From positions 2,790,001-2,854,000 of the forward strand of contig OZ374560.1 of NCBI GenBank assembly GCA_977862235.1: a DNA stretch of 64,000 bases, read 5' to 3'. A model generated the notes under the pieces. It saw nothing but the letters and a program-made list of their open reading frames with translations, did not search any database and was not told where the DNA came from. The DNA comes from Dudresnaya verticillata (taxonomy: Eukaryota). Below, piece by piece: positions 6,268 to 60,979 of this stretch; the first letter of the stretch is position 1, and each line of letters begins with the position of its first letter. Position numbers and translations under genes: made by a program.

Positions 6268-6268
6268 A

Positions 6269-10447: not shown

Positions 10448-10864
10448 TTAACTTGCAAACTCGCGAGAGAACTTTTCTGCTGCTCTTGTTGAAAACTGAG
10501 TATGGGTCTCTCCACGGACATCGTTCCGAATACCGATATATCCTGTGACTTTCGCAAGTGTCTCCATTACCTCCGTCACTGGAACCTTCTTCTGCCGTTC
10601 GTGGTCTAAAAGGTGATTATCTTCAAATGCACGCCGAAACCGTTCGTCATATGGAAGCTGCTTGTTCTTGCAGTCTTCCACCTGGAGTTGGTAGAAAAGC
10701 GGGAATAGCACAGGTGACTGTGGCCTCTGCTTTCGCTCGAGAAATTCTGGCAGCTCCAACATCGGCCACTTGCGAGCCACAAACGACGGCGAAAGAATGA
10801 AAGCGGCAGCCTTACTGCCGCGAATTGCCGCTCGAATTTGCTCTTCGTTTGTACGTTCCGAAAC
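10448..10864 (-). pseudogene. Orphan TIR C-terminus of a Sel1-ROCO-TIR gene (type of 49278-52892)
   Basis: ...RAAIRGSKAAAFILSPSFVARKWPMLELPEF...EKFSREFAS*, nearly identical to 49278-49694 and cut at 10864. Confidence 0.92.
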
Positions 10865-11496: not shown

Positions 11497-14400
11497 TTAA
11501 GTATCCTCAATAGCCTCGAACAACATATGTGCAGCTCTCTTGGCGAACTCATTTTCCGATTCTCCTCTATCGTTCCGAGCACCAGTATATTTCGTCACCG
11601 CTGCAACTGTGTCCATTACCTTCGACTCTTTCCCGAACTCGCGTTCAAAGAAGCGATTCTCTTTAAACTCTCGCCAAAATCGGTCGTCGAACGGAAGCTG
11701 TTTGTTCTTACAATCTCTGTACTCGAGTTTGTAGAACAGCGGGAACAGCACAAGGCGCGGTGATCCTTGTTTGCGCTTGAGAAATTCTGAAAGCTCCAAC
11801 AGCGGCCACTTGCGAGAGACAAACGACGATGACAGGATGAAGACGGCAGCTTTGCTGCCCCGGACCGCTGCCCAGATCCGTTCATCAGTTGTTTGCGTGG
11901 AAACCCTCAGACTCTCTTCATCCAGAAAACAACGCAAGCCCTTCTCCATCAACGCACTTCGCAGCGGGTATGCAAGCGACTCCTTATCTGGCCCTGCGTG
12001 GCTGATAAATACATCGAAAGGTCTTGCAGCTAGTCGCACGTCAACAGGACGCGGACCTGAGCCCGCACTTGCTCCTTTGAGGATGTGCGGCTTCAATCGT
12101 TTGAAAGTCCAAAGCTGCTCGCAAACGCAAGTGCCTTCTGCTGGGTCCAGTGGCTGGCACTGCGTACTTGTTACCCAACTCCGACGGATACCCAACTGCA
12201 CGCTACTGGAACTTCCACACCCCCCGCGCAATTCCTTAGGGCAGTCGGTGATCAGATAGTCTTTCCAGCTTGCATTGGTCCCATGCAGTGGTCCCTTCAA
12301 AAAACTTTCCATGCCCCGCAAACACTGGTGCGCAACCTGCAGCGCCTCATCGGCATCCGCCCTTATAGTCCAGTCGATCCATCTCTTTTCTGGTATAAAG
12401 CGAACCACAACTCTGCATGCTCCCTCAAGGGTCAGGATGACGGCATCTTGACGAAGCTCGGGCGCTTTTGTCCGTTCTCTTCCAATGGTTCGGTGAAGGT
12501 ACGCGATCAGTGACCCTGTCAGACTTGGCGGAATGGTATCAACAAACTCTGTTCTTAAAATTATTTCACTCTCTCCCTCCTTTGTGTCACACGAGAACCC
12601 TTCCCAAACCTTTGGCAGCAGTGAAGGTATCCCGATTAGCTCGTTCTGTTCACCATCCGCTGCTTCCACAGCCTGAAGGCGCATGAGAATGTCAAATTGA
12701 CAAAGAATGCCAAGCATGACTTTTCGGACAGCCGATGGGTATTTACACCACAGTGCCTCCAGTCCTTCACGGGGTATCAACCCATTCCGATAACCGTCTG
12801 CTTCATGCTGTCCCAGAGTCTGTAAAGTCCTTTCAAACTCTTTCGCTTCTTCTTCACCCAGTCTTTCTCGCATAAACTCAGCCGGGCCCGTGACCTGCCG
12901 AATAAAGTCCAGAATAACTGTTGGATCTGGGAACACGAACCATCCCTCGCCCGTCTGCACTTCTACGATATGGCCCTGCTGACTCTGGAATTGGACGCAT
13001 TTCTCAACGTCGGCTTCTCTCTCCTCCTTGTCACTAGAGAATCCGGGAAGTCTGGCAGCATGGCTCTGAACTTCTGTCATTACCAGAAAGACTTTTTGGC
13101 TTTCAGTGGCGTGCGACAAAATGGCTTCCCTGAGGGCAGCCCACCGAACTGGAACCTCTTCCCTTCCGTCAAGAATGTCTTCACTTGCTTCCTTGATAAA
13201 CTTCTCCAGTTCCACAACGCCTGACCCGGCACGGTCTTGTTCAGCACTGCTGTTCTTGTTCTCGATGGCAACCCACCGACACTTGCATTTGTCGACATCA
13301 CCCTTCTCACGTACCCAGTCATTGTAGACAGCCCTTCCGAGATTCTTTCGCAGTTTTTGTCGCAGCTGCTGAAACAAGTCTTCAGGGCTTTCAACTTCTG
13401 CCTTCCTGGTTCCCACCAGGATCACCCAAACATTTTTCGGGATTTGCGAAGACGCATGTGCCATTTGCATCCAGTTGCATAGTTCTAACACTTCGTCCTC
13501 TTGGGTGACTTCTGACGCAAAACGTTTCAGATCTACCACGAAAACAAAAATGGAAGCGCGGCGGATGAAGATTGCGGGAACACTGAGGTACTCTGCCTGA
13601 CCCCCAAGGTCCCAGCATTGCACCAACGCAGCTCGATTATCCGCAGGAAATACGGCACTCATGAGCCCTTGCCGTGCTGCTTCCCAAATGGGAGACGCTT
13701 GGGAGTTTATAGACTGCGAAGCAGCAATACTGGGCGGAGCTGGTGGTTGTTGAGCAGTGGTATGGCTGCTTGCCAATGTGTCTCCACTCTGGGGAACGGT
13801 CCTCTTGGTCGGAGGAGCTCGCTTGAGCCAAGTGGGGAGTTTAAGGCGGAATCTTGCGGTGGATTTTTCACTCGGCCGCGATGATGCATCAGTTGCAGTT
13901 GGGAGAAACGCCGATCCAGCTCGAAAGGAGCCGGCATCGGATGCACTTGCTGTAGATGACGTTGGTCGTTCCGTTGGCGTGGGTACCTCTGGAATACGTG
14001 ACCGTTACATGAGGGCATGGAAGGCCTCGCTGTTGAAGGCGAGTTGGTCGACGATGTCATCGTCCAACTTGGGGCCGTCCGGGACGACAAGAGTGCGACT
14101 CAGCGACACAAAGTGTGTCGGCTGGTGGGTGGCAACGAAGGGCATGGAGCGCAGGCTCCTTACCGTGCTTGTCTTACCACGTGCCGCACCGCCGAGAACA
14201 AGAAGAAAGCACTGCCGTGGCTTTGCTGTGGCGGTCTTGAGGGTGTTTTCAACAAGTGTGCTAGTGTCACCGATGCGGTTGACAAGGTATTGCGACCGGC
14301 TGCCGAATAATCCAAGCTCAAGAGGCGTTACCTGTTGATGCGCTGCTTGTTGATGCAGTTGGGCTGCTGCGTGCTCATCGCGAGCAACACCGACATTTCC

Positions 14401-15183
14401 GCGGCCAAGCAATGTGGCGAGCTCATAGAGTGCGACGCGGGTGCGATGGAGTTCGATTGAGCGTTGGAAGAGGCTCTTCGCGCGCGGCGGATCGCGCGCG
14501 TCTCCGATATGATTGGACAAAAGCGCTTGGCCCAACCAAACCATATACATTGGGGCCCTCTCGTGACCGCTGTCGCAGGCGCGTTGGAGCAGTTCGACGC
14601 CGCGCGGAACGTCTCGCGGAACATCGATCTCGCCGCACAGCAGCAATTCGCCCAAATCGGCCATTGCGACGACATCTTCGCCCTCCGCGATGGCGCGCTC
14701 GTACAGCGCAGCGGCGCGCGGAGCGTCTTTGGCGACGCCGTCGCCGGTTGCGAGGAGATTGCCCAAATTGGCCATTGCGTTCACATCCGCAAACTCTGCA
14801 ACGGCTCGTTCGTACAGCGCTGCCGCGCGCTTTGTGTCTTTGACAAAATGGCGCCATCCGATATGGAGACCCACTCCGAGATTGTACAGCGACACCCCGC
14901 GCGGATCTCGCGCGTTGGTGCGCTCGACCAGCTCCGCGGCGCGGCGCTCGTCCTTGGGCACTCCCGCGGCACGTTCCTTTAGCAGCAGTGCAAGGCCATG
15001 CCGAGCTTCGTCATGGTTGCCCTCATGAATCGCTCACTCGAGCAAGGCGACGGCTTGCAAAGGTAGAACAGGCCCTCCATCTGAAGAGTCCCAGTACGCA
15101 AAGGCAAGTGCAACCATGTCGTCGACGTCGGCATTGTCGTCGATAGCTTGGCGAAGGGCACGGCGCTGCTGTGTGGCATCCAT
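11497..15183 (-). pseudogene. Sel1-repeat/ROC/COR/TIR protein, copy A; full length but with TGA (15034-15036) and TAA (14005-14007)
   Basis: One continuous frame from ATG 15183 (MDATQQRRALRQ). The stops align with CGA and TCA in the intact paralogs. Motifs: GGAARGKTS, WDLGGQ, FDVFISHAG, WPLLEL. Confidence 0.92.
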
Positions 15184-21872: not shown

Positions 21873-22046
21873 TAGGGGCTACTCGGTTGTTATTATCTCT
21901 ATGATAAAGCGACTTCCCCCTGGTTGACAGTACCAGCGCCCAGTACCAAATGGGGACCCCGCACGGCGGGGTGGAGACGCCAAACCAGCAAAATCCCTCC
22001 TCCTACACAACGCGCCAGCCACATTCTCAGCATTCTCCTAAGGCAC

Positions 22047-26619: not shown

Positions 26620-27410
26620 TTGCACTAGTATTCGAAGACCCCAGCGGGGATGTGATACCGGACGAGATGGTCTTGTACATGCGGGCGGTGTTCGGGATTA
26701 TGGATGCGTGCAGATGGAATGACGGGAAGCTGCTGGTGCACATCCACAAGAAGTGCGAGTCGCAGACCAAAAACACGCTAGAGTGTTTGGCAGCAGGGTG
26801 CGACGGGATGTGGAACTGCCTGTGCGTGGAGGGTGCGGCGATGGGGCACGCGTGCTCGACGATGGTGTTGATGAACTTTGTATGGCTGGGGAATTAGAAG
26901 GTGCTGTCCAAATACCGGTGCCAGGAGTTTCGGAAGACGGCGATCGAGGTTACGCGTCCGACGACACTGAAGGACCCGCACCCCAAGCAGTACGTGTACG
27001 GAGAGCGGGTGTTGTAACTTTTGTTTGACTCGGAAGGAATGGGGGGGGGGTGGGGGGGGGGGGGGGGGGGGGGGGGGATGGTTCAACATGGCAGAGCTTT
27101 TCGGGGAGCGCGAGACGAACCGGATGACGACGCTGGCGTCGCCGAACACGGTCGTGAACAGGCCCAAGTACTTGTTTGATGACGACGTGCAGTTTACAGA
27201 GGCAATGGTGCATACGGTGCTTTCGCAGATGCTAGTAGACCTGAATGTGGGACGGAAGAGTGCCAGAGCGCGATGGGACTGGCGGTGTTGTTCGACCGGT
27301 GCTGGGGGCAGATGACGGGGAAGATGAGCAAGGCGATTGCTCGCGTGCAGGTGCACGATGCTCACCACCAGAGGGTGATTGCGGACGTCCGCAAGGCGTG
27401 GGACTTTTGG
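26620..27410 (+). pseudogene. Decayed fragment of an uncharacterised protein with HMGL-like/DRE-TIM HxH motif
   Basis: VFEDPSGD...KLLVHIHKK...LECLAAGCDGMWNCLCVEGAAMGHACST...PHPKQYVYGER, with stops and a G-run at 27040-27077. The fold call rests on recalled motif similarity only. Confidence 0.5.
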
Positions 27411-27773
27411 GTCGCCAAAGACGCTCCGCGTGTACACCGCGCGCAGCTGCGCTGTACGAACGAGCCGTTGCAGAGTTTGCGGATGTGAAGGCAATGGTCA
27501 ATTTGGGCAATCTCGTCGCAAACGGCGACGGCGTCGCCAAAGACGCTCCGCGCGCCGCTGCGCTGTACGAATGCGCCATCGCGGAGGGCGAAGATGTCGG
27601 CGCAATGTACGATTTGGGCGAATTGCTGCTGAGCGGCGAAATCGATGTTCCGCGAGACGTTCCGCGCGGCGTCCGACTGCTCCAACGCGCCTGCGACAGC
27701 GGTCTCGAGAGCGCCCCAATTCATATGGTTCGGTTGGGCCAAGCGCTTTTGTCCAATCATATCGGAGACGCGC
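27411..27773 (+). pseudogene. Inverted internal Sel1-repeat fragment of the ROCO-TIR family
   Basis: VAKDAPR...AAALYERAVAEFADVKAMVNLGNLVANGDGVAKDAPRAAALYECAIAEGE...LLSNHIGDA on the plus strand. Confidence 0.9.
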
Positions 27774-28321
27774 ACCGTCTCCGAGGAGAATGCCCAAATT
27801 GACCATTGCCTTTCACATCCGCAAACTCTGCAGCGGCTCGTTCGTACAGCGCAGCGGCGCGCGGGACGTCTTTGGCGACGCCGTCACCGTTTCTGAGGAG
27901 AAAGCCCAAATTAATCATTGCGTCCACATTTGCAATCTCTGCAACGGCTCGTTCGTACAGCGCTGCCGCGCGCTTTGTGTCTTTGACAAAATGGCGCCAT
28001 CCGTCAGAGAGACGCAGTCCGAGATTGTACAGCGACACCCCGCGCGGAGCTCGCGCGTTGGTGCGCTCGACCAGCTCCACGGCTCGGCGCTCGTCCTTGG
28101 GCACTCCAGCGGCTCCTTCCTTTAAGAACAGTGCAAAGCCGCGCCGCGCTTGGTCATGTGCGCCATCATCAATCGCTTGCTCGAGCAAGGCGACGGCTTG
28201 CAAAGGTAGAACAGGCCCTCCATCTGAAGCGTCCCAGTACGCAAAGGCAAGTGCAACCATGTTGTGGACGTCGGCATTGTCGTCGATAGCTTGGCGAAGG
28301 GTACGGCGGTGTGGCATCCAT
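27774..28321 (-). pseudogene. 5' part of Sel1-ROCO-TIR copy D (Sel1 repeats only)
   Basis: Family ATG at 28321, then a 5-nt deletion; LRQAIDDNADVHNMVALAFAYW...AMINLGFLLRNGDGVAKD; 1-nt insertion near 27812; ends at an inversion junction. Confidence 0.9.
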
Positions 28322-34245: not shown

Positions 34246-35282
34246 CTAATTCGCATGCTTCACACCAGCGGCCACAATATACAGAGGGGCCACGGGAATT
34301 TTGCGTCTCAAAGAACGAGAGACCCCTCGCATGGCATCCGTATCACTCAAACTCTCCGGGAAGAGGCCATCCACCTCGAAACGCTTCCGCATTGCCTGTT
34401 CGAGATCATACGCATTCCGTTTTGCAACGTCGAGGCTGTCGTGGATTCTTTGGTCCAGCGCCTTGTTCAGAGTGAAGCCTAGGATACCCACGTAATCGGC
34501 CTCTTGACGCACTTCACCGGCGAGACTGACGTTGATGTCTAGATGCCGCGATCTGGATTTCGTAGAAGCGGCCCTGATTTCGTAGATTGAAAGCGGGGTC
34601 TTGATACTAACCCGATTCTTCTTTTTGTTCATGGATATAGATAGGGCACTAGATTGGGTGTTTTCTTCTACATTCTTACCTCCGATGGAAACTCGCACTA
34701 TCAAAGCACTGTTAGCCCCATGTTTCTCTTCGCCAATGGAGATCTTTACCTGCTGCCCATCGCCGGTCGTGAGACCGAAGAGATCAAAGAATGTGCGGCG
34801 AATCCGAGCACCCCTGTTCGTAGTGTGCATACGAGCGACCATGGTCTCCCCACCTGCCTGTCCAAACAGTGCGTAGGTTTTGCCATGTTCCCCGTGGAAG
34901 TCGAAGTGGGAGCCGTCGAAGCCGGACATGTGTGGGTCACCCCTTCCGGAGGCGGCGCAGACGGCCGGGCCCCCCCCCCCCCGCACTTGTAGCCACAGGC
35001 GTACTTGATCATGCCCGCCACAAAAACTTGATCAACCGAAGTGGAGCCTGTGCATGATTGGACGCAGCCGTGAGAGCAGTTATCCATGAGACATCGCTGT
35101 GCCGCGGTCACGAGATTGCATGCCGTGGTCGCCTCCGGCATTGTATCGAAGAAATCCACCAGGGAGGGGATGTCCTCTACCTGACAAGAGCATGTATTTC
35201 CCACGGTGGGGGCAGGCGCCAACAGGAGAGTTGTGAAGGAAAGTAGGATGAAGGCCCGGAGGATGGAGGAGTTTTTGTTCAT
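34246..35282 (-). CDS. Secreted Cys-rich + VWD/root-cap-like domain protein, frameshifted in a C13 run (34970-34982)
   Basis: Signal peptide MNKNSSILRAFILLSFTTLLLAPAPTVG, Cys-rich domain and Gly linker, then in another frame GDPHMSGFDGSHFDFHGEHGKTYALF. TATAAA on the minus strand at 35369-35374. Confidence 0.75.
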
Positions 35283-42601: not shown

Positions 42602-43727
42602 ATGGACTCTTCAGAGTTTATCCCACCTCTCAAACCTAGCTCTAACCCATTTTTCAGGACAATCTCCGTTGTCCCCCCCCCCCTTCGTCCCGTTATGGCT
42701 CTCTGCCATCGAGATCTTCTTCACTTGTATCAAGGCTGTGCTTTTGGGAAGAAAATCCCCGCACAGAATCGCCGTTACAATTGCCTTTTTCATCGAATCC
42801 CTCATAGGCATAGTCTTGTCAGTCTTGCTGCTGACAAATTCTCTTCGATATGCGCAGGTAGCCGTTGAAGGATTTCATTACTTGCTTACTATTTTAGCAG
42901 CCATAGCAATCGCAACTGAGCTTTTCTGCGTTGTTATAGAAGTGTCTGTTATCCGTCGAGCATTTCTTCTGCGCTACAATGCTGAAGCCCGGGAAGAAAT
43001 TCAAGTTAACATCGGCGAGAAGTGGCGGACAGTTCTGAAGTGGGTCGCACTCATAGTGGGCACGGCCACACTTCTAACAGGGCTACTGTCGATCGATGTA
43101 TTCAACGACGAATTCGGGTTCAGCGGCTGGAGCTACACATGGACCAATCCGTTCAGTTATGCCACTCTAGCTTTGATTGCAATTCAAATAGGAACTCTCA
43201 TCGTGCTGAGTTTGGTATTAGAGGGGTCGTACTGGATTCGAATATGTTTCATTGTGAGCTTTCTGGTGATTAACATAGTAGGAGTGATCATCTTCCTACT
43301 CGCAGGAGGACAGTTGATAGGAGCAAGTGGGATTTTCGAGTTTAATCGTCGGCATCAACTTCTATCTTTCTTCGTGTTGAGCCTCGCCAGCGCCATCACT
43401 GCTTTGTCGGCATTTAGACTTTCCGGGCCCAGAGAAACTGGAGAGGCAACGAATGAATCTACAAAGGTGCTGGAGACGTTTTTCTTTGCTGCCGTGCCAC
43501 CAATTATTCTTCTTACGCTGGTGGGGAGTGAGGGGTTTGCAACAGCGGCCGATGTGGACGGAACTGGTTTTCAACTGATACTATACGAGTCTGATGTACT
43601 TCTTGTACTGATTACGATTCTGCCGCAAATGGCGGTGTTCGTGGTGCCCCTACTATTTGACCATGCCACTCTTGCTTTCCGATTGCGGAAGAATAGACGC
43701 AGTGCGTGCACCACGGGCGGAGGGTGA
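42602..43727 (+). CDS. Multi-pass membrane protein of unknown function; 5' end uncertain
   Basis: 352-codon open frame (42669-43727) with about nine hydrophobic segments. The nearest upstream ATG (42602) is out of frame by one base across a C11 run (42673-42683); alternatively CTAAC...TTTTCAG (to 42657) is an intron acceptor. Confidence 0.65.
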
Positions 43728-44057
43728 CAAGAATCGCAAACAATCTCTGCCTAGGATTGCAATGAGAACAAGGAAGGAGATTTGTACCACAAGCCGAGGT
43801 GGGTACGCCGACATTTTATTGGAAGAATGTAACGGGTTGGCGTGGATCCGTGAAAAATGTATAAAAGGTGTTTGTATCTATTGTCGTAGTGCAAATATAA
43901 ATATCCTTTCGAAGCTCGTGCTGTGCTGCAATAATGTATAATAATTGTGATTATTATTTATTTTGCTATTATTACAACCTCTTAAATCAGATTGGACTCT
44001 GCATTTTACCAAAGTGTCCAGCTCTATTATCCCTTAATGCCACAACTTGTGATTTCC

Positions 44058-44496
44058 GATGCATCCCGTAGCGGGTAGGCAACGGATCTCTTTTCCGCCC
44101 CTGCGTGGCTGATAAATACAGAGCAATATATCGTCCGGCGTCACTGAGCGCTGTAGTTCAAAAGGGTAGTGGCCTGTGAGGCTGATGATCCCTGAGATAC
44201 TCACTCAAGAATATGCGGCACCAGTTGTCCATACTTCCGCATTTCCCTTCGGCCACCTCGAGTGCCTGGCATTCTTCAGTCGAAACCCATGCCCGAGGTA
44301 TTGACTGCAACACGCTTTTGGAGCGGCCGCGACCACCCTGGACGTTCGAAGGACAATCGGCAACTAGAAAATGATTCCGAGCTTCGCTGCTTCCATGCGG
44401 AGGTCTTTTCAAAAACTCTTGCATAGCTTTCAAATATTGTTGAGCCACCGTCGCTGAGACGGCAACAATCGCACCTGATCGTCCACACAATCCATC
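44058..44496 (-). pseudogene. Old relic of the COR-TIR junction (B type)
   Basis: WIVWTIRCD...LKAMQEFLKRPPHGSSEARNHFLVADCPS...WVSTEECQALEVAEGKC...VFISHAGAEKRSVAYPLR, with frameshifts. Confidence 0.85.
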
Positions 44497-44499
44497 AAG

Positions 44500-45286
44500 C
44501 TGGGCTCTGGGACAATGGCTGCAAGCAATAACATTGCAAATTATTGTTGCACCAATACTCTCTCCGTCGGCTATCTATATTGCTATATAGCCGCCATCAT
44601 GCCCCAGTAACATCTGCAGAATATGCCTACGTCGTGCAATAAGTCTGCAATAGACTTAGATAGTGCGAAGGAAGCATGGGGATCCATGTTAACGTTTGTG
44701 TAATGCGATGTCAAAACTGTTCATTCATTTTGAGGAATATAATAGCTTCAAAAACTTGGTGGTCATCGCCTTGCGATTGTCGGTTAGCACGTGCTCCGCA
44801 ATGCTCCTGAGCCGGTCAACCTCGGCAACGGATCCAAGAATAAAGTTGCAGTTGATAATGGCATCTAGTTTCCAGGGTACCTTTCGCTTCTTGGATAAAC
44901 GCTGAATGATCGATGACTTGTAAATTATAAGTCATGGTGCATCATCGACGACGATGCTCCTATTGGCGAGAAAGCAGACCTGGCAACTTGTTAGTGATAA
45001 AGTAGCAATGATTTGGTACTATGTAATTTACAGCATGGGGCTAGAAAACGCTATATTCTCGGGATCAACTCTAGAGATACCGCTCCCCCGCAAAACCGAA
45101 CATATGTATACTGCTTTTAGCAACAGGGCTTCTAATATTGCTACTTAACTTAACCCAATAGGTATTACAATATACATTGTCACTGCCATAAGAATTGCAA
45201 TTTGCCATCACATCAGCAACTCAATATGCCATTGCTATTGTATATTGCAATATATTGCTACTGCAATTAATTGCACGACAGCCCTG
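44500..45286. repeat. TTGCAA-rich dispersed repeat, possibly a non-autonomous DNA transposon (related pieces 25020-25340, 36720-36950, 56400-56550)
   Basis: Shared blocks such as TAGGTATTGCAATAYACAWTGTCACTGC...AATTGCAATT and a common end CGACAGCCCTG. No convincing TSD. Confidence 0.5.
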
Positions 45287-47046: not shown

Positions 47047-49694
47047 CTGGAAGATAGCGAATATTGTTATACAGGCGATTGAGCTGAACCAGGGGCATAA
47101 GCAGCGCCTGAAAAGGTGACGGGTAATGACAAAAACGATAAACAAGCGCGTTGGACTTCTGCCAGAACACAATACAGGAAACGCTATTTCTCTACGGAGC
47201 GAGAGAGAGACCTTTCTCTACGGCGTTAGAATATTTGTGAATATTTGTCATGTCGTTTCTGTGCTTGTTTCAGGATGGGTAGTATTGATGAGAGCTCATC
47301 ATCTCTAAAGAGACAAGTGTCACAGGAGGTGAAAGTGCAACGTACCTTGTGGGTGTAGAAAAGATGTTTAAGACAAGAGCCCAACTTTTATGCTGTGTGC
47401 TAAGTGTTGTGAATCGCAACTACTATTTTTGATAACCACAACTCGAATCAAATGAATCGCAACTACTATTTTTGTTAACCACCCGCCCGCGGAGGCGGAC
47501 GGGTGGTGCAGTGGTTCGCCGCTGCGCGGTCGATTCCGGGAAACCGAGTTCGACTCCCGCCAGGTCCCATGGTTCTACATTTTCAAGGATTTTTCCCCAC
47601 TGGGGTTGTTTGCCGATTCTTCTCATGGAGCCGGCTGGACTGCCTCCAGATTACGGGTGTAAGCCCGTCAGTAGATAGCTGGTTGGTAGGGCGTGTGCCT
47701 GCATATGGGCCTTAGTCGCCCGCGCAACTGCGCACGTTAAAGACGCAATAAAAGTACAACATCACAACCCGTATCAATAGAACAGAATGACATTTCGAGG
47801 AACGAAGAGGACCATGTAGGAGGAGACGGAAGCAGCGAGAGCTCCCAGGGTGAACGGTTACGTCTGCCACCGTCGGAACGTTCCAGCAAATTCATGAGCT
47901 CCGTTGCGGTTTGGTACATACCGCACACAGCCGCCACCCACACTGATACACCCACTCACCGATCCATGCGTGCCGCCACTCGTCCCTTCGAGCTGCTAAC
48001 AGCATATACGGGATTTTGCGTCTCAGGAGACGAGAAACTGTCTAAACATCTCACGTGGAAGTATCTTTCAAACCCACTGGGACGAGGTCGTCGCCCTCGA
48101 AGCGAATTATGTTCCAGACCGTACTCATCGGCAGTCTGGAGACCAAAAGCATTAAAGAAAGTGTGGCGAATACGATGGCCATTGCCCGTCTCGCGCATGC
48201 GAGCGGCCATGTTCTCACCACCGGCCTGTCCAAACAGTTTGTAGGCTCTGCCTTGCTGTTCACACTTGCTCGCCCTGGAAGCTGAAGTGAGAGCCGTCAA
48301 AGCCAAACATGTCTGGATTCTTCGAGGCGAAAGCCATGCAGAAGGCCCGGATGCCGATGCTCTTAAAGTCGCATTCGTAGTGGAGCACGGCGTCAATTTG
48401 CAAGGGGACAATCTGCGTACTGATTCAGCAGGAGAAGGCACACGGGTGGTCGCCAGCGTAGGGGTCCGTGAGGCATCGCGCTTTCGGCTGGTCGCGGCAC
48501 GCGTTTTCCGTGGCGCGGCGTTCGGTGAAAGTGGCCAGCCGGGTGAAGGCAGGCTGTCAAGTGCACGAGCAGCTACTAGTGTGTCGGGTGCGGGCGGTCC
48601 CCCACAGCAAATATACTGGGACAAGGAGGTAAAAGAAACAATCGATAGGGGGGTGTCGTCCATCTTCTCTGTGGCGGTGGTCGTGGGTGCTGGTTGGCGT
48701 AAAAAGGTGAGTGCGAAGCGAGGTTGGTTCTTGTTCTTTAATAAAGGTCTCTCCTCCTCGGTTGAAAGTGGTACATACGGGCTGCAGCAAGGACGAGATT
48801 CGTGTTTCGTTTTGCTGTTTGTCGACGGGGAGATCTTTTCGGAAGGCAGTACGGCCATTAACAATAATGGGTTAACGCGGAAACAATAACAAGAGTGTTT
48901 TGTAAGCACTTTCAAGCCATCTTCTGACTCCGCCTGGGTTCTATGTATAGCCTGCACCTTGGTACGATCTCAAATGTTCAACAACCAGCCTTGTAAATAT
49001 AGACAGGACACCGAGCTGAGCTTCGATGTCAATAGACAAGGACGAAATAGAAATCAGACACACTACCGGTAATAAAGCAAGCAACAACCTGGCAGTAATG
49101 GCACACACCCGCGACATTTCCACGGCCTTGTTCTTCCACGGTCGCCATATTCTGTTTCTCTGTACAGAAACCGCATACCTAATCACACTCGACTCGTTCT
49201 ACCGGCCAGATCTTGATCGCACAGGATTTTAATAGTCTTAACTCGCAAACTCGCGAGGTACAAGATGTTTATTAGTATTAACTTGCAAACTCGCGAGAGA
49301 ACTTTTCTGCTGCTCTTGTTGCAAACTGAGTATGGGTCTCTCCACGGACATCGTTCCGAACACCGATATATCCTGTCACTTTCGCAAGTGTCTCCATTAC
49401 CTCCATCACTGGAACCTTCTTCTGCCGTTCGTGGTCGAAAAAGTGATTATCTTCAAATACACGCCGAAACCGTTCGTCATACGGAAGCTGCTTGTTCTTG
49501 CAGTCTTCCACCTGGAGTTGGTAGAAAAGCGGGAATAGTGCAGGTGACTGTGGTCTCTGCTTTCGCTCGAGAAATTCTGACAGCTCCAACATCGGCCACT
49601 TGCGAGCCACAAATGACGGCGAAAGAATGAAAGCGGCAGCCTTACTGCCGCGAATTGCCGCTCGAATTTGCTCTTCGTTTGTACGTTCCGAAAC
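47047..49694. repeat. Segmental duplication, copy 2; includes the VWD-like pseudogene (about 48000-48663, minus)
   Basis: Matches 8457-10864 apart from the SINE insertion and small indels. Confidence 0.95.
47483..47765 (+). mobile_element. tRNA-derived SINE (283 bp)
   Basis: A box TGGTGCAGTGG (47504), B box GAGTTCGACTCC (47546) and a LINE-like tail ending AATAAAAGTACAACATCAC. Absent at the paralogous site 8891; CAC on both sides. Confidence 0.85.
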
Positions 49695-52600
49695 CTTCAA
49701 ACTCTCTTCATCCAAAAAACACCGCAATCCCATTGCTTCCAATGCATTACGTAGCGGGTAGGCAACGGATCTCTTTTCCGGGCCTGCGTGGCTAATAAAG
49801 ACATCATACGGAGTTACTGAGTCTTGTAGTTCAAAATGATCGTGGCTTGATCCCTCAGACACACCCTCAAGAATATGTAACTTCAGTTGTCCATAGTTCC
49901 ACAGTTGATTGCAATAGCATTTTCCTTCTGCCTCATCGAGTGCCTGACATTCTTCAGTCGAAACCCATGTCTGAGGTATTGACAACAACACACTTTTGGA
50001 GCCGCCGCAACCCCCCTGGATGCTCGAAGGGCAATCAGTAACTAGAAAATGATTCCGAGCTGCGTTGCTTCCGTGCGGAGGTCTTGTCAAAAAATCTTCC
50101 ATAGCTTTCAAACATTCTTGAGCCACCTTCATTGCTGAGACGGCATCGCACCTGATCGTCCACACAATCCATCTTTTCTTAGGAACGAAGCAAACAACAA
50201 CGCGGCAAGTCCCCTTCAGAGAAAGAATTACAGCATCTTGGCGAAGTTCCGGTGGCTTTGTTCGCTCTCCTCCGATAGTGCGATGAAGGAATGCAACAAA
50301 GTAGCCCTCCAAGCCAGGGGGAATGGCATCGTCAAAGATGGTTCTCAAAACAATTTCGCACTCTCCTTCTTTCGTAGGGCACTGGAATCCCTCCCAACCT
50401 TTAGCAAGCAACGACGGGATCCCGACTAGCTCCTTCCGCTCACCACCCTCCGTCTCTGTAGAGTGCAAACGCATAAGAATGCCAAACCGGCACAGAATGT
50501 CAAGCATCACATCTCGAACAGGAGGTAGGTATTTACACCACAATTCATCCAGTCCCTTTCGTGGGATCAACCCTTTCTCGTAACTTTCTGCTTCATGCTG
50601 TCCCAAAGTTTGTAAACTCCTTTCGAACTCTTTCGCTTCTTCTTCACCCAGCCGTTCTCGCATAAGTTCCGCTGGCCCCGTGACCTGCCGAATAAAGTCC
50701 AGAATTACGCTCGGATCTGGAAACACATACCATCCCTCGCCCATCTGAACTTCGACGATATGCCCTTGTTGACCCTGGAATTGGACGCATTTCTCAACGT
50801 CGGCTTCTCTCTCCTCCTTGTCACTAGAGAATCCGGGAAGTCTGGCAGCTTGGCTCTGAACTTCTGTCATTAACAGAAAGACTTTTTGGCTTTCAGTGGA
50901 GTGCGATAAAATGGCTTCCCTGAGGGCAGCCCACCGAACTGGAACCTCTTCCCTTCCGTCAAGAATGTCTTCACTTGCTTCCTTGATTCTTTTCTCTAGT
51001 TCCACAACGCCTGACCCGGCACGGTCTTGTTCAGCACTGCTGTTCTTGTTCTCGATGGCAACCCACCGACACTTGTATTTGTCGACATCGCCCTTCTCAC
51101 GTACCCAGTCATCGTAGACAGCCCTTCCGAGATGCTTTCGCAGTTTTTGTCGCAGCTGCTGAAACAAGTCTTCAGGGCTTTCAACTTCTGCCTTCCTGGT
51201 TCCCACCAGGATCACCCAAACGTTTTTCGGGGTTTGCGAAGACGCATGTGCCATTTGCATCCAGTTGCATAGTTCTAACACTTCGTCCTCTTGGGTGACT
51301 TCTGACGCAAACCTTTTCAGATCTACCTCGAAAACAAAAATGGAAGCGCGGCGGATGAAGATTGCGGGAACACTGAGGTACTCTGCCTGACCTCCAAGGT
51401 CCCAGCATTGCACCAACGCAGCTCGATTATCCGCAGGTAATGCGGCACCCATGAGCCCTAGCCGTGCTACTTCCCAAATGGGAGACGCTTGGGAGTTTAT
51501 AGACTGCGAAGCAGCAATGCTGGGCGGAGCTGGTGGTTGTTGAGCAGTGGTATGGCTGCTTGCCAATGTGTCTCCACTCTGGGGAACGGTCCTCTTGGTC
51601 GGAGGAGCTCGGTTGCGCCAAGTGGGGAGTTTAAGGCGGAATCTTGCGGTGGATTTTTCACTCGGCCGCGATGATGCATCAGTTGCCGTGGGCAGCCGGA
51701 ACAATGTAGCTCTTGACATGAGGGCATGCAAGGCCTCACTGTTGAAGGCGAGCTGGTTGACAATGTCATCGTCCAACTTGGGGCCGCCGGGGACGACAAG
51801 AGTGCGACTCAGCGACACAAAGTGTGTCGGCTGGTGGGTGGCAACGAAGGGCATGGAGCGCAGGCTCCTTACCGTGCTCGTCTTTCCGCGTGCCGCACCG
51901 CCGAGAACAAGAAGAAAGCACTGCCGTGGCTTTGCTGTGGCGGTCTTGAGGGTGTTTTCAACAAGTGTGCTGGTGTCACCGATGCGGTTAAGAAGATATT
52001 GCGACCGGCTGCCGAAGACTTTAAGCTCAAGAGGCGTTACCTGTTGATGCGCTACTTGTTGATGCAGTTGGGCTGCTGTTTGCTCATCGCTAGCAACACC
52101 GACATCTCCGCGGGCAAGCAATGTGGCGAGCTCATAGAGTGCGACGCGGGTGCGATGGAGTTCGATTGAGCGTTGGAAGAGGTTCTTCGCGCGCGGCGGA
52201 TCGCGCGCGTCTCCGATATGATTGGACAAAAGCGCTTGGCCCAACCAAACCATATAAATTGGGGCCCTCTCGTGACCGCTGTCGCAGGCGCGTTGGAGCA
52301 GTTCGACGCCGCGCGGAACGTCTCGCGGAACATCGATTTCGCCGCTCAGCAGCAATTTGCCCAAATTGGACATTGCGATGACATTTTCGCCCTCCGCGAT
52401 GGCGCGGTCGTACAGCGCAGCGGCGCGCGGAGCGTCTTTGGCGACGCCGTCGCCGGTTGCGAGGAGAAGGCCCAAATTGACCATTGCGTCCACATTCGCA
52501 AACTCTGCAACGGCTCGTTCGAACAGCGCTGCCGCGCGCTTTGTGTCTTTGACAAAATGGCGCCGTCCGATATGGAGACGCGCTCCGAGTTTGCGCAGCG

Positions 52601-52892
52601 ACACCCCGCGCGGATCTCGCGCGTTGGCGCGCTCGACCAGCTCCGCGGCGCGGCGCTCGTCCTTGGGCACTCCCTCGGCTCCTTCCTTTAGCAACAGTGC
52701 AAGGCCATGCCGCGCTTCGTCATGGTCGCCCTCATCAATCGCTCGCTCGAGCAAGGCGACGGCTCGCAAAGGCAGAACGGGCCCTCCATCTGATGCGTCC
52801 CAAAACGCAAAGGCGAGTGCAACCATGTCGTGGACGTCGGCATTGTCGTCGATAGCTTGGCGAAGGGCACGGCGCTGCGGTGTGGCATCCAT
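49278..52892 (-). CDS. Sel1-repeat/ROC/COR/TIR protein, copy B (1204 aa, intronless)
   Basis: ATG at 52892 (MDATPQRR), Sel1 repeats, P-loop GGAARGKTS, WDLGGQ, VGTRK, COR (VPVRW...GHI...PSLL) and TIR YDVFISHAG...FLDEESL...FILSPSF...WPMLEL. Confidence 0.93.
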   Translation of the reverse strand: MDATPQRRALRQAIDDNADVHDMVALAFAFWDASDGGPVLPLRAVALLERAIDEGDHDEARHGLALLLKEGAEGVPKDERRAAELVERANARDPRGVSLRKLGARLHIGRRHFVKDTKRAAALFERAVAEFANVDAMVNLGLLLATGDGVAKDAPRAAALYDRAIAEGENVIAMSNLGKLLLSGEIDVPRDVPRGVELLQRACDSGHERAPIYMVWLGQALLSNHIGDARDPPRAKNLFQRSIELHRTRVALYELATLLARGDVGVASDEQTAAQLHQQVAHQQVTPLELKVFGSRSQYLLNRIGDTSTLVENTLKTATAKPRQCFLLVLGGAARGKTSTVRSLRSMPFVATHQPTHFVSLSRTLVVPGGPKLDDDIVNQLAFNSEALHALMSRATLFRLPTATDASSRPSEKSTARFRLKLPTWRNRAPPTKRTVPQSGDTLASSHTTAQQPPAPPSIAASQSINSQASPIWEVARLGLMGAALPADNRAALVQCWDLGGQAEYLSVPAIFIRRASIFVFEVDLKRFASEVTQEDEVLELCNWMQMAHASSQTPKNVWVILVGTRKAEVESPEDLFQQLRQKLRKHLGRAVYDDWVREKGDVDKYKCRWVAIENKNSSAEQDRAGSGVVELEKRIKEASEDILDGREEVPVRWAALREAILSHSTESQKVFLLMTEVQSQAARLPGFSSDKEEREADVEKCVQFQGQQGHIVEVQMGEGWYVFPDPSVILDFIRQVTGPAELMRERLGEEEAKEFERSLQTLGQHEAESYEKGLIPRKGLDELWCKYLPPVRDVMLDILCRFGILMRLHSTETEGGERKELVGIPSLLAKGWEGFQCPTKEGECEIVLRTIFDDAIPPGLEGYFVAFLHRTIGGERTKPPELRQDAVILSLKGTCRVVVCFVPKKRWIVWTIRCDAVSAMKVAQECLKAMEDFLTRPPHGSNAARNHFLVTDCPSSIQGGCGGSKSVLLSIPQTWVSTEECQALDEAEGKCYCNQLWNYGQLKLHILEGVSEGSSHDHFELQDSVTPYDVFISHAGPEKRSVAYPLRNALEAMGLRCFLDEESLKVSERTNEEQIRAAIRGSKAAAFILSPSFVARKWPMLELSEFLERKQRPQSPALFPLFYQLQVEDCKNKQLPYDERFRRVFEDNHFFDHERQKKVPVMEVMETLAKVTGYIGVRNDVRGETHTQFATRAAEKFSREFAS

Positions 52893-57019: not shown

Positions 57020-60000
57020 CTAGTGACTTTCTAGTTTCTGGAGTAGTGTGATTGCGGCTCGTTGAGCAAAATCCTCGTTCGCCTCTTCGCGGTCATTCCG
57101 AATACCAACAAACGAGCTTAAACGCCCGGCCAAGTCAGCAATTTTCGTTGATGGCGATTGACTCTGTCGTTCGTATTCGAAAAACCCTCTCCTCCTGAAA
57201 AGATCGCTATTCTCTCCATGGAAAACATCCATCGCCTTCTGACACTCTTCGACCGAGAGTTTGTAGAACAACGGGAAAATCAAGGGAGGTTTCTCGCCTC
57301 TTCCAACCGCCTCATCCGTCCGCTTGAAGAATTCTTCCAGCTCTAGCATAGGCCACTTGCGAGCCAGGAACTCTGGTGACAGTATGAATATTGCAGCTCT
57401 GCTCCCTCGAATTGCAGCCATAATTTGGTCCTTATTCGTCTTTGTGGATACCTCGAGGCTTTTCTCATCTAAGAAACAACTGACCTTTGTGCCCATTGCA
57501 TTCATTACCGGCACGGCGAGGCACCCCTTCTCGCTCCCTGCGTGGCTGATAAATACATCGAAAGGTCTTGCAGCTAGTCGCACGTCAACAGGACGCGGAC
57601 CTGAGCCCGCACTTGCTCCTTTGAGGATGTGCAGCTTCAATCGCTTGAAAGTCCAAAGCTGCTCGCAAACGCAAGTGCCTTCTGCTGGGTCCAGTGGCTG
57701 GCACTGCGTACTTGTTACCCAACTCCGACGGATACCCAACTGCACGCTACTGGAACTTCCACACCCCCCGCGCAATTCCTTAGGGCAGTCGGTGATCAGA
57801 TAGTCTTTCCAGCTTGCATTGGTCCCATGCAGTGGTCCCTTCAAAAAACTTTCCATGCCCCGCAAACACTGGTGCGCAACCTGCACTGCTTCATCGGCAT
57901 CCGCCCTTATAGTCCAGTCGATCCATCTCTTTTCTGGAATAAAGCGAACCACGACTCTGCATGCTCCCGCAAGGGCCAGGATGACGGCATCTTGACGAAG
58001 CTCGGGCGGTTTTGTCCGCTCTCTTCCAATGGTTCGGTGAAGGTACGCGATCAGTGACCCTGTCAGACTTGGCGGAATGGTATCAACAAACTCTGTTCGC
58101 AAAATTAGTTCACTCTCTCCATCCTTTGTGTCACACGAGAACCCTTCCCAACCCTTTGGCAGCAGTGAAGGTATCCCGATTAGCTCGTTCTGTTCACCGT
58201 CCGCTCCTTCCACAGCCTGAAGGCGCATGATGATGTCAAATTGACAAAGAATGTCAAGCATGACTTTTCGGACAGCCGATGGGTATTTACACCACAGTGC
58301 CTCCAGTGCTTCACGGGGTATCAACCCATTCCGATAACCGTCTGCTTCATGCTGTCCCAGAGTCTGTAAAGTCCTTTCAAACTCTTTCGCTTCTTCTTCA
58401 CCCAGTCTTTCTCGCATAAACTCAGCCGGGCCCGTGACCTGCCGAATAAAGTCCAGAATAACTGTTGGATCTGGGAACACGAACCATCCCTCGCCCGTCT
58501 GCACTTCTACGATATGGCCCTGCTGACTCTGGAATTGGATGCATTTCTCAACGTCGGCTTCTCTCTCCTCCTTGTCACTAGAGAATCCGGGAAGTCTGGC
58601 AGCATGGCTCTGAACTTCTGTCATTTCCAGAAAGACCTTTTGGCTTTCAGTGGCGTGTGACCAAATGGCTTCCCTGAGGGCAGCCCATCGAACTGGAACT
58701 CGTTCCCTTCCGTCCAGAATGTCTTCACTCGCTTCCTTGATAAACTTCTCTAGTTCCACAACGCCTGACCCGGCACGGTCTTGTTCAGCACTGCTGTTCT
58801 TGTTCTCGATGGCAACCCACCGACACTTGTATTTGTCGACATCGCCCTTCTCACGTACCCAATCATTGTAGACAGCCCTTCCAAGATGCTTTCGCAGTTT
58901 TTGTCGCAGCTGCTGAAACAAGTCTTCAGGGCTTTCAACTTCTGCCTTCCTGGTTCCCACCAGGATCACCCAAACGTTTTTCGGGGTTTGCGAAGACGTA
59001 TGTGCCATTTGCATCCAGTTGCATAGTTCCAACACTTCGTCCTCTTGGGTGACTTCTGACGCAAACCTTTTCAGGTCTACCACGAAAACAAAAATGGAAG
59101 CGCGGCGGATGAAGATTGCGGGAACACTGAGATACTCTGCCTGACCCCCAAGGTCCCAGCATTGCACCAACGCAGCGCGATGGTCCTCAGGAAAAACGTT
59201 ACTCAAGAGCCCTTGTCGTGCTGCTTCCCAAATGGGAGACGCTTGGGAGTTTATAGACTGCGAAGCAGCAATACTGGGCGGAGCTGGTGGTTGTTGAGCA
59301 GTGGTATGGCTGCTTGCCAATGTGTCTCCACTCTGGGGAACGGTCCTCTTGGTCGGAGGAGCTCGGTTGGGCCAAGTGGGGAGTTTAAGGCGGAATCTTG
59401 CGGTGGATTTTTCACTCGGCCGCGATGATGCATCAGTTGCCGTGGGCAGCCGGAACAATGTAGCTCTTGACATGAGGGCATGCAAGGCCTCACTGTTGAA
59501 GGCGAGCTGGTTGACAATGTCATCGTCCAACTTGGGGCCGCCGGGGACAACAAGAGTGCGACTCAGCGACACAAAGTGTGTCGGCTGGTGGGTGGCAACG
59601 AAGGGCATGGAGCGCAGGCTCCTTACCGTGCTTGTCTTGCCGCGTGCCGCACCGCCGAGAACAAGAAGAAAGCACTGCCGTGGCTTTGCTGTGGCGGTCT
59701 TGAGGGTGTTTTCAACAAGTGTGCTAGTGTCACCGATGTGGCTAAGAAGGTATTGCCATTGGCTGCCGAAGACTTTAAGCTCAAGAGGCGTTACCTGTTG
59801 ATGCGCTACTTGTTGATGCAGTTGGGCTGCTGTTTGCTCATCGCTAGCAACACCGACATCTCCGCGGGCAAGCAATGTGGCGAGCTCATAGAGTGCGACG
59901 CGGGTGCGATGGAGTTCGATTGAGCGTTGGAAGAGGTTCTTCGCGCGCGGCGGATCGCGCGCGTCTCCGATATGATTGGACAAAAGCGCTTGGCCCAACC

Positions 60001-60979
60001 AAACCATATAAATTGGGGCCCTCTCGTGACCGCTGTCGCAGGCGCGTTGGAGCAGTTCGACGCCGCGCGGAACGTCTCGCGGAACATCGATTTCGCCGCT
60101 CAGCAGCAATTTGCCCAAATTGGACATTGCGATGACATTTTCGCCCTCCGCGATGGCGCGGTCGTACAGCGCAGCGGCGCGCGGAGCGTCTTTGGCGACG
60201 CCGTCGCCGTTTGCGAGGAGAACGCCCAAATTGACCATTGCGTCCACATTCGCAAACTCTGCAACGGCTCGTTCTAACAGCGCAGCGGCGCGCGGAGCGT
60301 CTTTGGCGACGCCGTCGCCGCTTTCGAGGAGAAAGCCCAAATTGACCATTGCGTCCACATTCGCAAACTCTGCAACGGCTCGTTCGAACAGCGCAGCGGC
60401 GCGCGGAGCGTCTTTGGCGACGCCGTCGCCGCGTCTGAGGAGAACGCCCAAATTGGACATTGCGACGGCATTTTCGCCCTCCGCGATGGCGCGCTCGAAC
60501 AGCGCAGCGGCGCGCGGAGCGTCTATGGCGACGCCGTCACCGGTTGCGAGGAGAAGGCCCAAATTGACCATTGCGTTCACAATCGCAAACTCTGCAACGG
60601 CTCGTTCGTACAGCGCTGCCGCGCGCTTTGTGTCTTTGACAAAACCGCGCGATCCGTTATCGAGACGCAGTCCGAGATTGAACAGCGACACCCCGCGCGG
60701 ATCTCGCGCGTTGGCGCGCTCGACCAGCTCCGCGGCGCGGCGCTCGTCCTTGGGCACTCCCACGGCACCTTCCTTCAGCAACAGTGCAAGGCCATGCCGC
60801 GCTTCGTCATGGTCGCCCTCATCAATCGCTCGCTCGAGCAAGGCGACGGCTCGCAAAGGCAGAACGGGCCCTCCATCTGATGCGTCCCAAAACGCAAAGG
60901 CGAGTGCAACCATGTCGTGGACGTCGGCATTGTCGTCGATAGCTTGGCGAAGGGCAAGGCGCTGCGGTGTGGCATCCAT
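57020..60979 (-). CDS. Sel1-repeat/ROC/COR/TIR protein, copy C (1319 aa, three extra Sel1 units)
   Basis: ATG at 60979, same architecture as copy B, four GDGVA-type 37-aa repeats, and TIR FDVFISHAG...WPMLELEE. Confidence 0.93.
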   Translation of the reverse strand: MDATPQRLALRQAIDDNADVHDMVALAFAFWDASDGGPVLPLRAVALLERAIDEGDHDEARHGLALLLKEGAVGVPKDERRAAELVERANARDPRGVSLFNLGLRLDNGSRGFVKDTKRAAALYERAVAEFAIVNAMVNLGLLLATGDGVAIDAPRAAALFERAIAEGENAVAMSNLGVLLRRGDGVAKDAPRAAALFERAVAEFANVDAMVNLGFLLESGDGVAKDAPRAAALLERAVAEFANVDAMVNLGVLLANGDGVAKDAPRAAALYDRAIAEGENVIAMSNLGKLLLSGEIDVPRDVPRGVELLQRACDSGHERAPIYMVWLGQALLSNHIGDARDPPRAKNLFQRSIELHRTRVALYELATLLARGDVGVASDEQTAAQLHQQVAHQQVTPLELKVFGSQWQYLLSHIGDTSTLVENTLKTATAKPRQCFLLVLGGAARGKTSTVRSLRSMPFVATHQPTHFVSLSRTLVVPGGPKLDDDIVNQLAFNSEALHALMSRATLFRLPTATDASSRPSEKSTARFRLKLPTWPNRAPPTKRTVPQSGDTLASSHTTAQQPPAPPSIAASQSINSQASPIWEAARQGLLSNVFPEDHRAALVQCWDLGGQAEYLSVPAIFIRRASIFVFVVDLKRFASEVTQEDEVLELCNWMQMAHTSSQTPKNVWVILVGTRKAEVESPEDLFQQLRQKLRKHLGRAVYNDWVREKGDVDKYKCRWVAIENKNSSAEQDRAGSGVVELEKFIKEASEDILDGRERVPVRWAALREAIWSHATESQKVFLEMTEVQSHAARLPGFSSDKEEREADVEKCIQFQSQQGHIVEVQTGEGWFVFPDPTVILDFIRQVTGPAEFMRERLGEEEAKEFERTLQTLGQHEADGYRNGLIPREALEALWCKYPSAVRKVMLDILCQFDIIMRLQAVEGADGEQNELIGIPSLLPKGWEGFSCDTKDGESELILRTEFVDTIPPSLTGSLIAYLHRTIGRERTKPPELRQDAVILALAGACRVVVRFIPEKRWIDWTIRADADEAVQVAHQCLRGMESFLKGPLHGTNASWKDYLITDCPKELRGGCGSSSSVQLGIRRSWVTSTQCQPLDPAEGTCVCEQLWTFKRLKLHILKGASAGSGPRPVDVRLAARPFDVFISHAGSEKGCLAVPVMNAMGTKVSCFLDEKSLEVSTKTNKDQIMAAIRGSRAAIFILSPEFLARKWPMLELEEFFKRTDEAVGRGEKPPLIFPLFYKLSVEECQKAMDVFHGENSDLFRRRGFFEYERQSQSPSTKIADLAGRLSSFVGIRNDREEANEDFAQRAAITLLQKLESH

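What the first reader, a model, noticed from the sequence alone, without database searches (positions are those of the whole stretch)
60100..60690. Sel1 array varies in copy number and at three hypervariable codons per 111-bp unit
Seen: copy C has four GDGVA-type units versus one in A and B. The units are nearly identical in DNA, but NLG-x-L-L/V-x-x-G reads LLLAT, VLLRR, FLLES, VLLAN (C), NLLAT (A), FLLRN and ILLGD (D), NLVAN (inverted piece). The codons change only at positions 1-2 (GTT/TTT/CTT/AAT/ATT; GCA/GAA/AGA/GGA; AAC/AGC/CGC/ACC/GAC). The preceding repeat is equally variable (YNLGVGLHIGW, RKLGARLHIGR, FNLGLRLDNGS, YNLGLRLSDGW). Inference: diversifying selection on one face of helix A, forming a ligand-binding surface, plus unequal crossing-over.
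Basis: partly seen in the sequence, partly recalled or inferred. Interest (0 to 1): 0.82.

Follow-up and report, generated by a model that had tools for sequence, protein, structure and literature searches.

The report
Fast-evolving Sel1–ROCO–TIR receptor repeats
A cluster of duplicated genes, likely from a red seaweed, encodes repeat–GTPase–TIR proteins whose repeat units differ in number and change almost only at residues predicted to line the binding groove, as expected of a likely immune or non-self receptor that would work like an NLR with a different central switch.

Summary
Observation confirmed and extended. The 111-bp array lies in an uninterrupted 1,319-aa Sel1–Roc–COR–TIR (ROCO) reading frame, one of four tandem paralogues (B and C open; A and D broken). 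The nearest named relatives are Chondrus crispus proteins (30–34% identity), so a red alga is likely. The variable codons are Sel1/TPR positions 9, 12, 13 (also 5), the positions that contact ligands in TPR grooves. Positive selection is supported by a site model (P≈2e-6; 1.6e-4 for open genes only), tree-free counts (13 non-synonymous vs 3 synonymous changes) and simulations with gene conversion; Roc, COR and TIR show dN/dS 0.1–0.4. Hybrid units point to unequal crossing-over. Corrections: the 'inverted piece' is D's own flipped continuation (D had three units), the ILLGD codons abut that junction, and the variable patch includes both neighbouring repeats. COR and TIR modules are mosaic between paralogues. 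Likely an NLR-like intracellular non-self receptor family with a GTPase switch and an NADase-type TIR; function untested. The architecture is already named for Chondrus and this evolutionary regime is known from fungal NLRs and brown-algal ROCOs; I found no report of the combination. New variant; interest 0.6.

The parts
57020..60979 (-). Gene C: uninterrupted ORF, 1,319 aa from the first Met; about ten Sel1-type repeats, Roc, COR, TIR
60581..60694 (-). Repeat 0 of C (FNLGLRLDNGS); variable between paralogues at positions 5, 6, 9, 10, 12, 13, 15, 17 with no synonymous change
60470..60580 (-). Unit C1 (L/AT), same three codons as B1
60359..60469 (-). Unit C2 (V/RR), hybrid: start like repeat 5, end like repeat 0
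60248..60358 (-). Unit C3 (F/ES), hybrid: helix B ends like repeat 0
60137..60247 (-). Unit C4 (V/AN)
60020..60136 (-). Repeat 5 (GEIDV type); its five amino-acid-variable positions among 4 copies are 2, 5, 6, 9, 13
58880..59704 (-). Roc GTPase domain of C (approximate bounds; P-loop GGAARGKT, DLGGQ; long low-confidence insert)
57575..58879 (-). COR region of C (approximate bounds)
57032..57562 (-). TIR domain of C, with the W-x-x-x-E-L glutamate aligned to NADase TIRs
49278..52892 (-). Gene B: open paralogue, 1,204 aa from the first Met, one GDGVA unit (52383-52493), divergent COR end and TIR
11497..15183 (-). Copy A: broken paralogue with two in-frame stops; one GDGVA unit (14674-14784)
27774..28321 (-). 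Copy D, 5' part: repeats -2 to 0, unit D1 (27817-27927), frameshifted start of D2 ending at the inversion junction
27411..27773 (+). Inverted continuation of D: rest of D2, unit D3 (27485-27595), repeats 5 and 6
10451..10864 (-). Orphan TIR 3' end, 94% identical in protein to B's
44054..44538 (-). Decayed COR/TIR fragment of a further copy

Best explanation
The array is the variable part of the Sel1 repeat domain of a tandemly duplicated Sel1–Roc–COR–TIR gene family, likely red-algal, whose units vary in number and carry an excess of amino-acid changes at positions predicted to line the binding groove, likely because the proteins are intracellular non-self (immune) receptors. Shown from sequence: the architecture, copy numbers 1, 1, 3 and 4, hybrid units, dN well above dS at helix-A positions 5, 9, 12, 13 (and 6 in repeat 0), purifying selection on Roc, COR and TIR, and mosaic COR/TIR modules. 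Inferred: units are gained and lost by unequal crossing-over inside short shared tracts (C is most simply a one-unit B-like 5' half joined to a three-unit D-like array), conversion keeps the scaffold uniform, and selection keeps new groove residues. Inferred and untested: a variable ligand bound in the groove would trip the Roc-COR switch, cluster the TIR domains and start NAD+ cleavage and defence or cell death, as in NLRs but with a GTPase in place of the STAND ATPase.
For: Pfam Sel1 142 bits, Roc 34.3 and TIR_2 34.1, all above cut-off; Roc-COR fold hits LRRK1/2 and C. tepidum Roco and an Atlas cluster at 0.97 with Roc 83%, COR-A 58%. M2a vs M1a: 2dL=26.0, omega about 19 at sites 5, 9, 12, 13 (8 units); 17.4 for the 5 units of open genes; 22.4 for repeat 0. 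Tree-free minimum counts at literature-defined groove positions: 13 non-synonymous vs 3 synonymous (8 units), 10 vs 1 (open genes), 11 vs 0 (repeat 0), P 3e-4 or lower; other positions of the GDGVA units run at about 0.5 of the synonymous rate. Simulations with conversion reach 13 groove changes in 0 of 4000 runs at omega 1 and 0 of 4000 at 0.4. B and C differ by 4 bases in the 93 codons before repeat 0 and by 0 in the 118 codons of repeats 5-7, but by 9 non-synonymous and 0 synonymous changes in 17 codons of repeat 0. TIR's best solved relatives are NADase TIRs and the glutamate is kept in A, B and C. Tandem cluster with broken copies among retrotransposons. Same regime in fungal NLRs and brown-algal ROCOs.
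Against: No ligand, expression or phenotype data. Only 9 units and 4 repeat-0 copies from one window; 4 of the 9 units lie in broken genes. The site model is my own implementation with a tree that recombination distorts. The overall scarcity of third-position changes is not significant on its own (P=0.06 under neutrality). TPR groove positions vary across any TPR family, immune or not (PMC1261162). The Roc-COR model is poor (pLDDT 55, pTM 0.31), Pfam COR-A does not hit C itself, and the G4 motif (TRKAE) lacks an obvious aspartate. No read support for the array could be checked.
Confidence: 0.65

Rival explanations
1. Same selection and repeat turnover, but the receptor serves allorecognition or another non-pathogen recognition (fusion of thalli or sporelings, gametes, symbionts), like the het-d/het-e NLRs of Podospora.
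For: The repeat regime matches the Podospora NWD allorecognition family, broken copies included (PMC1805685). That red algae fuse cells through secondary pit connections is recalled, not from a call.
Against: Divergence here is between paralogues in one assembly, not shown between alleles; a TIR effector and cluster turnover fit pathogen defence equally well.
Confidence: 0.17
2. Diversifying selection acts on a non-immune adaptor: paralogues are diverging to bind different endogenous or environmental partners in stress signalling.
For: Many brown-algal ROCOs respond to non-pathogen stresses (abstract of PMC11378527); TPR groove variation is generic.
Against: The changes are very recent (flanks 99-100% identical) and recur in adjacent repeats, and half the copies are broken: more like an arms race than stable sub-functionalisation.
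Confidence: 0.1
3. No selection: relaxed constraint, conversion from unseen divergent copies, or local mutation hot spots produce the pattern.
For: A and D are broken; A vs B/C shows 14 non-synonymous vs 1 synonymous change in repeats 5-7; unseen donors are likely.
Against: Signal persists in open genes alone; imported tracts should carry synonymous changes, and repeat 0 has none; third bases of the hot codons never vary; 2 of 12 CpGs vary; simulations with conversion fail to reproduce the clustering.
Confidence: 0.05
4. Targeted mutagenesis of the diversity-generating-retroelement type (adenine-specific) rewrites these codons.
For: Two of the three codons have the NNT/NNC form, and all six variable columns of codons 9, 12, 13 show an A in at least one unit.
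Against: Nine A columns, three of them silent or partly silent, are invariant in 8 of 8 units; codon 9 of repeat 0 varies without any A; all 8 matches of the unit core lie in gene copies, no separate template; the window's reverse transcriptases go with RNase H, integrase and chromodomain ORFs of LTR type.
Confidence: 0.02
5. The extra units are an assembly artefact.
For: No reads could be laid on the array; an inversion junction and a 37-base G run lie near copy D.
Against: The four C units all differ (79-94%), stay in frame, and copy D independently shows three units with the same linker order as C2-C4.
Confidence: 0.01

Closest known systems
TPR-ROCO-TIR / 'Sel1-repeat containing' proteins of Chondrus crispus (named in PMC11378527; P0003, P0004, P0047, P0198)
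   Same: Same domain order; 30-34% identity; B and C nest with them in the Roc-COR tree (95/91 support).
   Different: The Chondrus-cluster proteins tested have no near-identical repeats (best 37-residue self-match 11-13 of 37, against 33 of 37 in C). The passages I read report no selection or copy-number analysis for them.
Fungal NLRs with highly conserved WD/TPR/ANK repeats (Podospora het-d/het-e NWD family, Pa_2_10340; PMC1805685, PMC4986451)
   Same: Intra-exonic repeats under concerted evolution, repeat-number change, a few positively selected codons on the binding face, broken copies in the family.
   Different: Central domain is Roc-COR, not NACHT/NB-ARC; sensor is N-terminal and effector C-terminal; repeat is Sel1; internal identity is lower (about 77% over 111 aa, counted by hand, below their 85% threshold).
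Brown-algal LRR-ROCO and NB-ARC-TPR candidate receptors (PMC3341825, PMC11378527)
   Same: ROCO switch behind a variable repeat sensor; positive selection on the concave face; clustering and gene turnover.
   Different: There each repeat is its own exon and varies by exon shuffling and splicing; here repeats lie in one uninterrupted frame, are Sel1 not LRR, and a TIR follows COR.
Plant TIR-NLRs and bacterial NADase TIR proteins (RUN1, RPP1, L6; AbTIR)
   Same: TIR with the conserved glutamate; clustered, fast-evolving sensor.
   Different: No NB-ARC, no LRR; TIR is C-terminal; activity untested.

Membership tests
ROCO proteins | Roc GTPase domain | tested here: met
   PF08477 34.3 bits (cut-off 27) in C, 30.5 in B; P-loop GGAARGKT and DLGGQ visible
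ROCO proteins | COR domain directly after Roc | tested here: met
   The 18 best Foldseek rows are LRRK1, LRRK2 or C. tepidum Roco/COR (from a low-confidence model); Atlas first cluster 0.97, COR-A in 58%; Pfam COR-A does not hit C and is below cut-off in relatives P0050, P0052
ROCO proteins | GTP binding and hydrolysis, COR-mediated dimer cycle | not testable with these tools
   G4 reads TRKAE, without an obvious aspartate; canonical form recalled
Sel1-like repeat proteins | 36-38-residue helix-turn-helix repeats with A3, L7, G8, G14; SLR superhelix | tested here: met
   PF08238 142 bits; model pLDDT 87.5; top folds are Sel1 proteins 6ok3, 4bwr; conserved positions as in PMC3851747
Enzymatic TIR domains | TIR fold with conserved catalytic glutamate | tested here: met
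   TIR_2 above cut-off in A, B, C; W-x-x-x-E-L aligns with AbTIR; that this E is the catalytic one is recalled
Enzymatic TIR domains | NAD+ cleavage on self-association | not testable with these tools
   needs an assay
NLR (STAND) receptors | NB-ARC or NACHT ATPase | tested here: not met
   no such Pfam family in B or C; the nucleotide domain is Roc. Not an NLR, though it may work like one
Fungal-type high-internal-conservation repeats | 85% identity over at least 100 aa (PMC4986451) | tested here: not met
   86 of 111 residues (77%) at offset 37 in C, counted by hand; best single window 33 of 37
Fungal-type high-internal-conservation repeats | Positive selection at concave-face codons and repeat-number variation | tested here: met
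   number varies between paralogues, between individuals not tested
Brown-algal exon-shuffling ROCOs | One exon per repeat | tested here: not met
   B and C are uninterrupted frames
Diversity-generating retroelements | Adenine-specific variation, template repeat, dedicated RT | tested here: not met
   window only, genome not available

The most novel reading that the evidence does not exclude
Red seaweeds have evolved their own equivalent of NLR immune receptors from ROCO GTPases: a Sel1 groove diversified by repeat shuffling and positive selection as sensor, Roc-COR as switch, and exchangeable NADase-type TIR modules as effectors, converging independently on the fungal-NLR mode of making specificities.
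Probability: 0.4. Interest if true: 0.82.

Novelty: new variant of a known kind. Interest (0 to 1): 0.6.

Why it matters
How red algae recognise pathogens is largely open: candidate receptor lists exist (391 'potential pathogen receptors' in PMC12115072; NB-ARC-WD40/TPR and TIR-kinase genes in PMC6928737), but a list does not say which genes are in an arms race. This locus gives specific genes and specific codons under diversifying selection, so the question becomes testable (amplicons, allele swaps, TIR assay). It would also add a case of ROCO proteins serving as NLR-like receptors, with a sensor type and mechanism different from brown algae, and it could matter for disease in farmed seaweeds.

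Tried and rejected
No whole genome is held for this window, so no genome-wide unit set. No sequencing run was listed; this says nothing on expression and left no reads to lay. The tool that returns DNA around database proteins was closed, so relatives could be compared as proteins only. Metagenome scans gave nothing: 150 pattern matches, none confirmed, and 0 exact matches of the unit core. A search with the Sel1 region found only distant Sel1 proteins, 27-45% identical in the 120 rows listed. The 122-residue length difference between P0055 and P0199 is a C-terminal extension, not repeat number. A neighbouring ORF searched as a taxon check gave 1 unnamed hit. Three look-ups of earlier findings returned nothing. 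The Chondrus genome paper was not held under two ids. A TIR-transfer preprint had 0 hits for red algae, Roc or Sel1. Rejected: DGR-type mutagenesis, CpG hot spots, neutral conversion, assembly artefact (see rivals); the inverted piece as a separate fifth copy; a bacterial contig (LTR retrotransposon ORFs with chromodomain; tree with Chondrus proteins).

Full report
What the locus is. The array lies in a minus-strand frame of 1,319 residues from the first Met (57020-60979). Pfam finds Sel1 (142 bits), Roc (34.3) and TIR_2 (34.1), all above cut-off. The Sel1 part folds confidently (pLDDT 87.5) and matches solved Sel1 proteins. The rest gives a poor model (pLDDT 55), yet its 18 best fold matches are LRRK1, LRRK2 and C. 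tepidum Roco, and the Atlas first cluster scores 0.97 with Roc in 83% and COR-A in 58% of members. So C is a Sel1–Roc–COR–TIR ROCO protein. The window holds a second open copy B, a copy A with two in-frame stops, a broken 5' copy D, and two further fragments, with co-duplicated flanks and LTR-type retrotransposon ORFs.

Origin. Of 44 full-length hits, the two best are Chondrus crispus proteins at 30-32%. A profile search found more Roc-COR-TIR relatives; of 10 looked up, 2 clusters are named, both Chondrus. In a 23-row Roc-COR tree B and C sit in a clade with Chondrus proteins (95/91). A red alga is likely; the species is not determined.

The observation. Codons and copy numbers are as stated, with the corrections listed under the observation check. 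The inverted piece begins where D's second unit breaks off, so D had three units. Copy numbers are A 1, B 1, D 3, C 4.

How units arise. Units C2, C3 and D1 start helix B like unit 1 and end it like repeat 0, switching inside a shared tract of about 11 bases; C2 also starts like repeat 5 and switches inside the NLG codons. These hybrids are what unequal crossing-over leaves. The linker order of C2-C4 equals that of D1-D3, and C1 carries B1's three codons, so C is most simply a one-unit 5' half joined to a three-unit array (inference). Recombination also acts further down: C and B are 94-100% identical in most windows from the N-terminus into Roc, C and A are 95-100% identical across the COR end where B is 59-75%, and the three TIRs differ (46-78%).

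Selection. PMC1261162 (passages read) names 2, 5, 9, 12, 13 among the most variable TPR positions, on the concave face, and 2, 5, 6, 9, 12, 13 as ligand contacts; PMC3851747 (passages) states that the first helices form the concave surface in a Sel1 protein. In the model these positions lie in helix A; I had no coordinates, so exposure rests on this correspondence. A codon model I wrote (GY94, F3x4, FastTree topology) favours M2a over M1a for 8 units without D2 (2dL 26.0, sites 5, 9, 12, 13), for the 5 units of open genes (17.4; adds site 19) and for the 4 copies of repeat 0 (22.4; omega at its bound because no synonymous change exists). Because recombination can inflate such tests, I counted minimum changes per column: groove positions 13 non-synonymous vs 3 synonymous in codons 3-27, 10 vs 1 in open genes, 11 vs 0 in repeat 0, binomial P from 3e-4 to 4e-6; other positions run at about half the synonymous rate in the GDGVA units but about three times it in repeat 0. 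Forward simulations with conversion gave the top-three clustering in 0 of 4000 runs at omega 1 and 2 of 4000 at 0.4, and the groove count in 0 of 4000 for both; the low third-position count alone has P=0.06 under neutrality. Controls inside the gene: B and C differ by 4 bases in 93 codons before repeat 0, by none in repeats 5-7, but by 9 non-synonymous changes in 17 codons of repeat 0; Roc, COR and TIR have dN/dS 0.10-0.42 (its residue labels run one too high). Repeat 5 varies in amino acid only at 2, 5, 6, 9, 13; in repeats -2, -1 and 6 positions 9, 12, 13 are invariant among 4 copies. The variable patch thus spans repeats 0-5. Against over-reading: 4 of 9 units are in broken genes, the sample is one window, and A vs B/C shows 14 non-synonymous to 1 synonymous change in repeats 5-7, which may partly be decay.

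Mechanism. Shown: architecture, turnover, selection. Inferred: a variable ligand binds the groove, the Roc-COR switch changes state, and TIRs cluster and cleave NAD+. The TIR's closest solved relatives include AbTIR and plant NLR TIRs and the glutamate of W-x-x-x-E-L is kept in A, B and C; its catalytic role is recalled knowledge. Defence is preferred over allorecognition only modestly.

Comparison. PMC11378527 (abstract and passages) names TPR-ROCO-TIR in Chondrus and reports exon shuffling and selection for brown-algal LRR-ROCOs; PMC3341825 (passages) likewise. PMC4986451 and PMC1805685 (passages) describe the same repeat regime in fungal NLRs. It is not an NLR (no STAND domain), has no exon-per-repeat structure, and falls below the fungal 85% threshold. 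Of 12 proteins tested for near-identical repeats, 2 reach 30 of 37 or more: C and the unnamed Sel1-Roc protein P0055; Chondrus-cluster proteins reach 11-13, so the expansion is lineage-specific but perhaps recurrent. Five searches aimed at red-algal Sel1/ROCO/TIR receptors and one at selection on Sel1 repeats listed no paper reporting this; I saw listings, and passages only of the papers named here plus PMC12115072 and PMC6928737. The Chondrus genome paper and its supplement could not be read and may describe these genes; subscription journals are largely missing.

Verdict. New variant of a known kind: known architecture, known evolutionary regime, combination not found in print. Interest 0.6; 0.82 if the family proves to be the red-algal counterpart of NLRs.

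Noticed in passing
window 49278-52000, 11497-13900, 57020-59700: COR end and TIR are mosaic between paralogues: C shares COR with A but not TIR; B differs in both; the switch between A and C falls near the start of TIR. Suggests effector-module exchange.
   Followed up: partly
window about 59735-59760 and 59175-59225 (C) vs B: Two further small patches of dense B/C difference outside the repeats (about residues 437-444 before Roc and 616-631 inside Roc); likely conversion tracts, they include synonymous changes.
   Followed up: no
window 27761-27790: D's inversion junction carries a perfect 9-bp inverted repeat around a 5-base loop; an 11-base insertion lies near the other end, and a 37-base G run at 27041-27077.
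   Followed up: partly
window 1-8009 and 20000-21927: LTR-retrotransposon ORFs: RT/RNase H (3-1724, -), gag-like (3062-5401, -; by position and motif, no Pfam hit), integrase with chromodomain (6462-8009, +), a second RT (20236-21927, +).
   Followed up: no
window 34246-34986 (-); 9257-9391; 48127-48346: ORF with a weak VWD-like hit (below cut-off) and one unnamed homologue (49%); decayed copies lie downstream of genes A and B inside the duplicated block.
   Followed up: partly
window 42669-43727 (+): 352-aa hydrophobic, probably multi-pass membrane ORF with no Pfam family.
   Followed up: no
proteins P0052, P0053, P0070: Relatives with other architectures: ankyrin-Roc-COR-TIR, TIR-Roc-TIR and Sel1-TIR, suggesting sensor swapping in the family.
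   Followed up: no
protein P0055: Unnamed Sel1-Roc protein with two near-identical adjacent repeats (32 of 37), a possible second case of recent repeat expansion.
   Followed up: partly
protein P0003: Labelled 'NB-ARC protein' in Chondrus, but Pfam finds only Roc and TIR.
   Followed up: no
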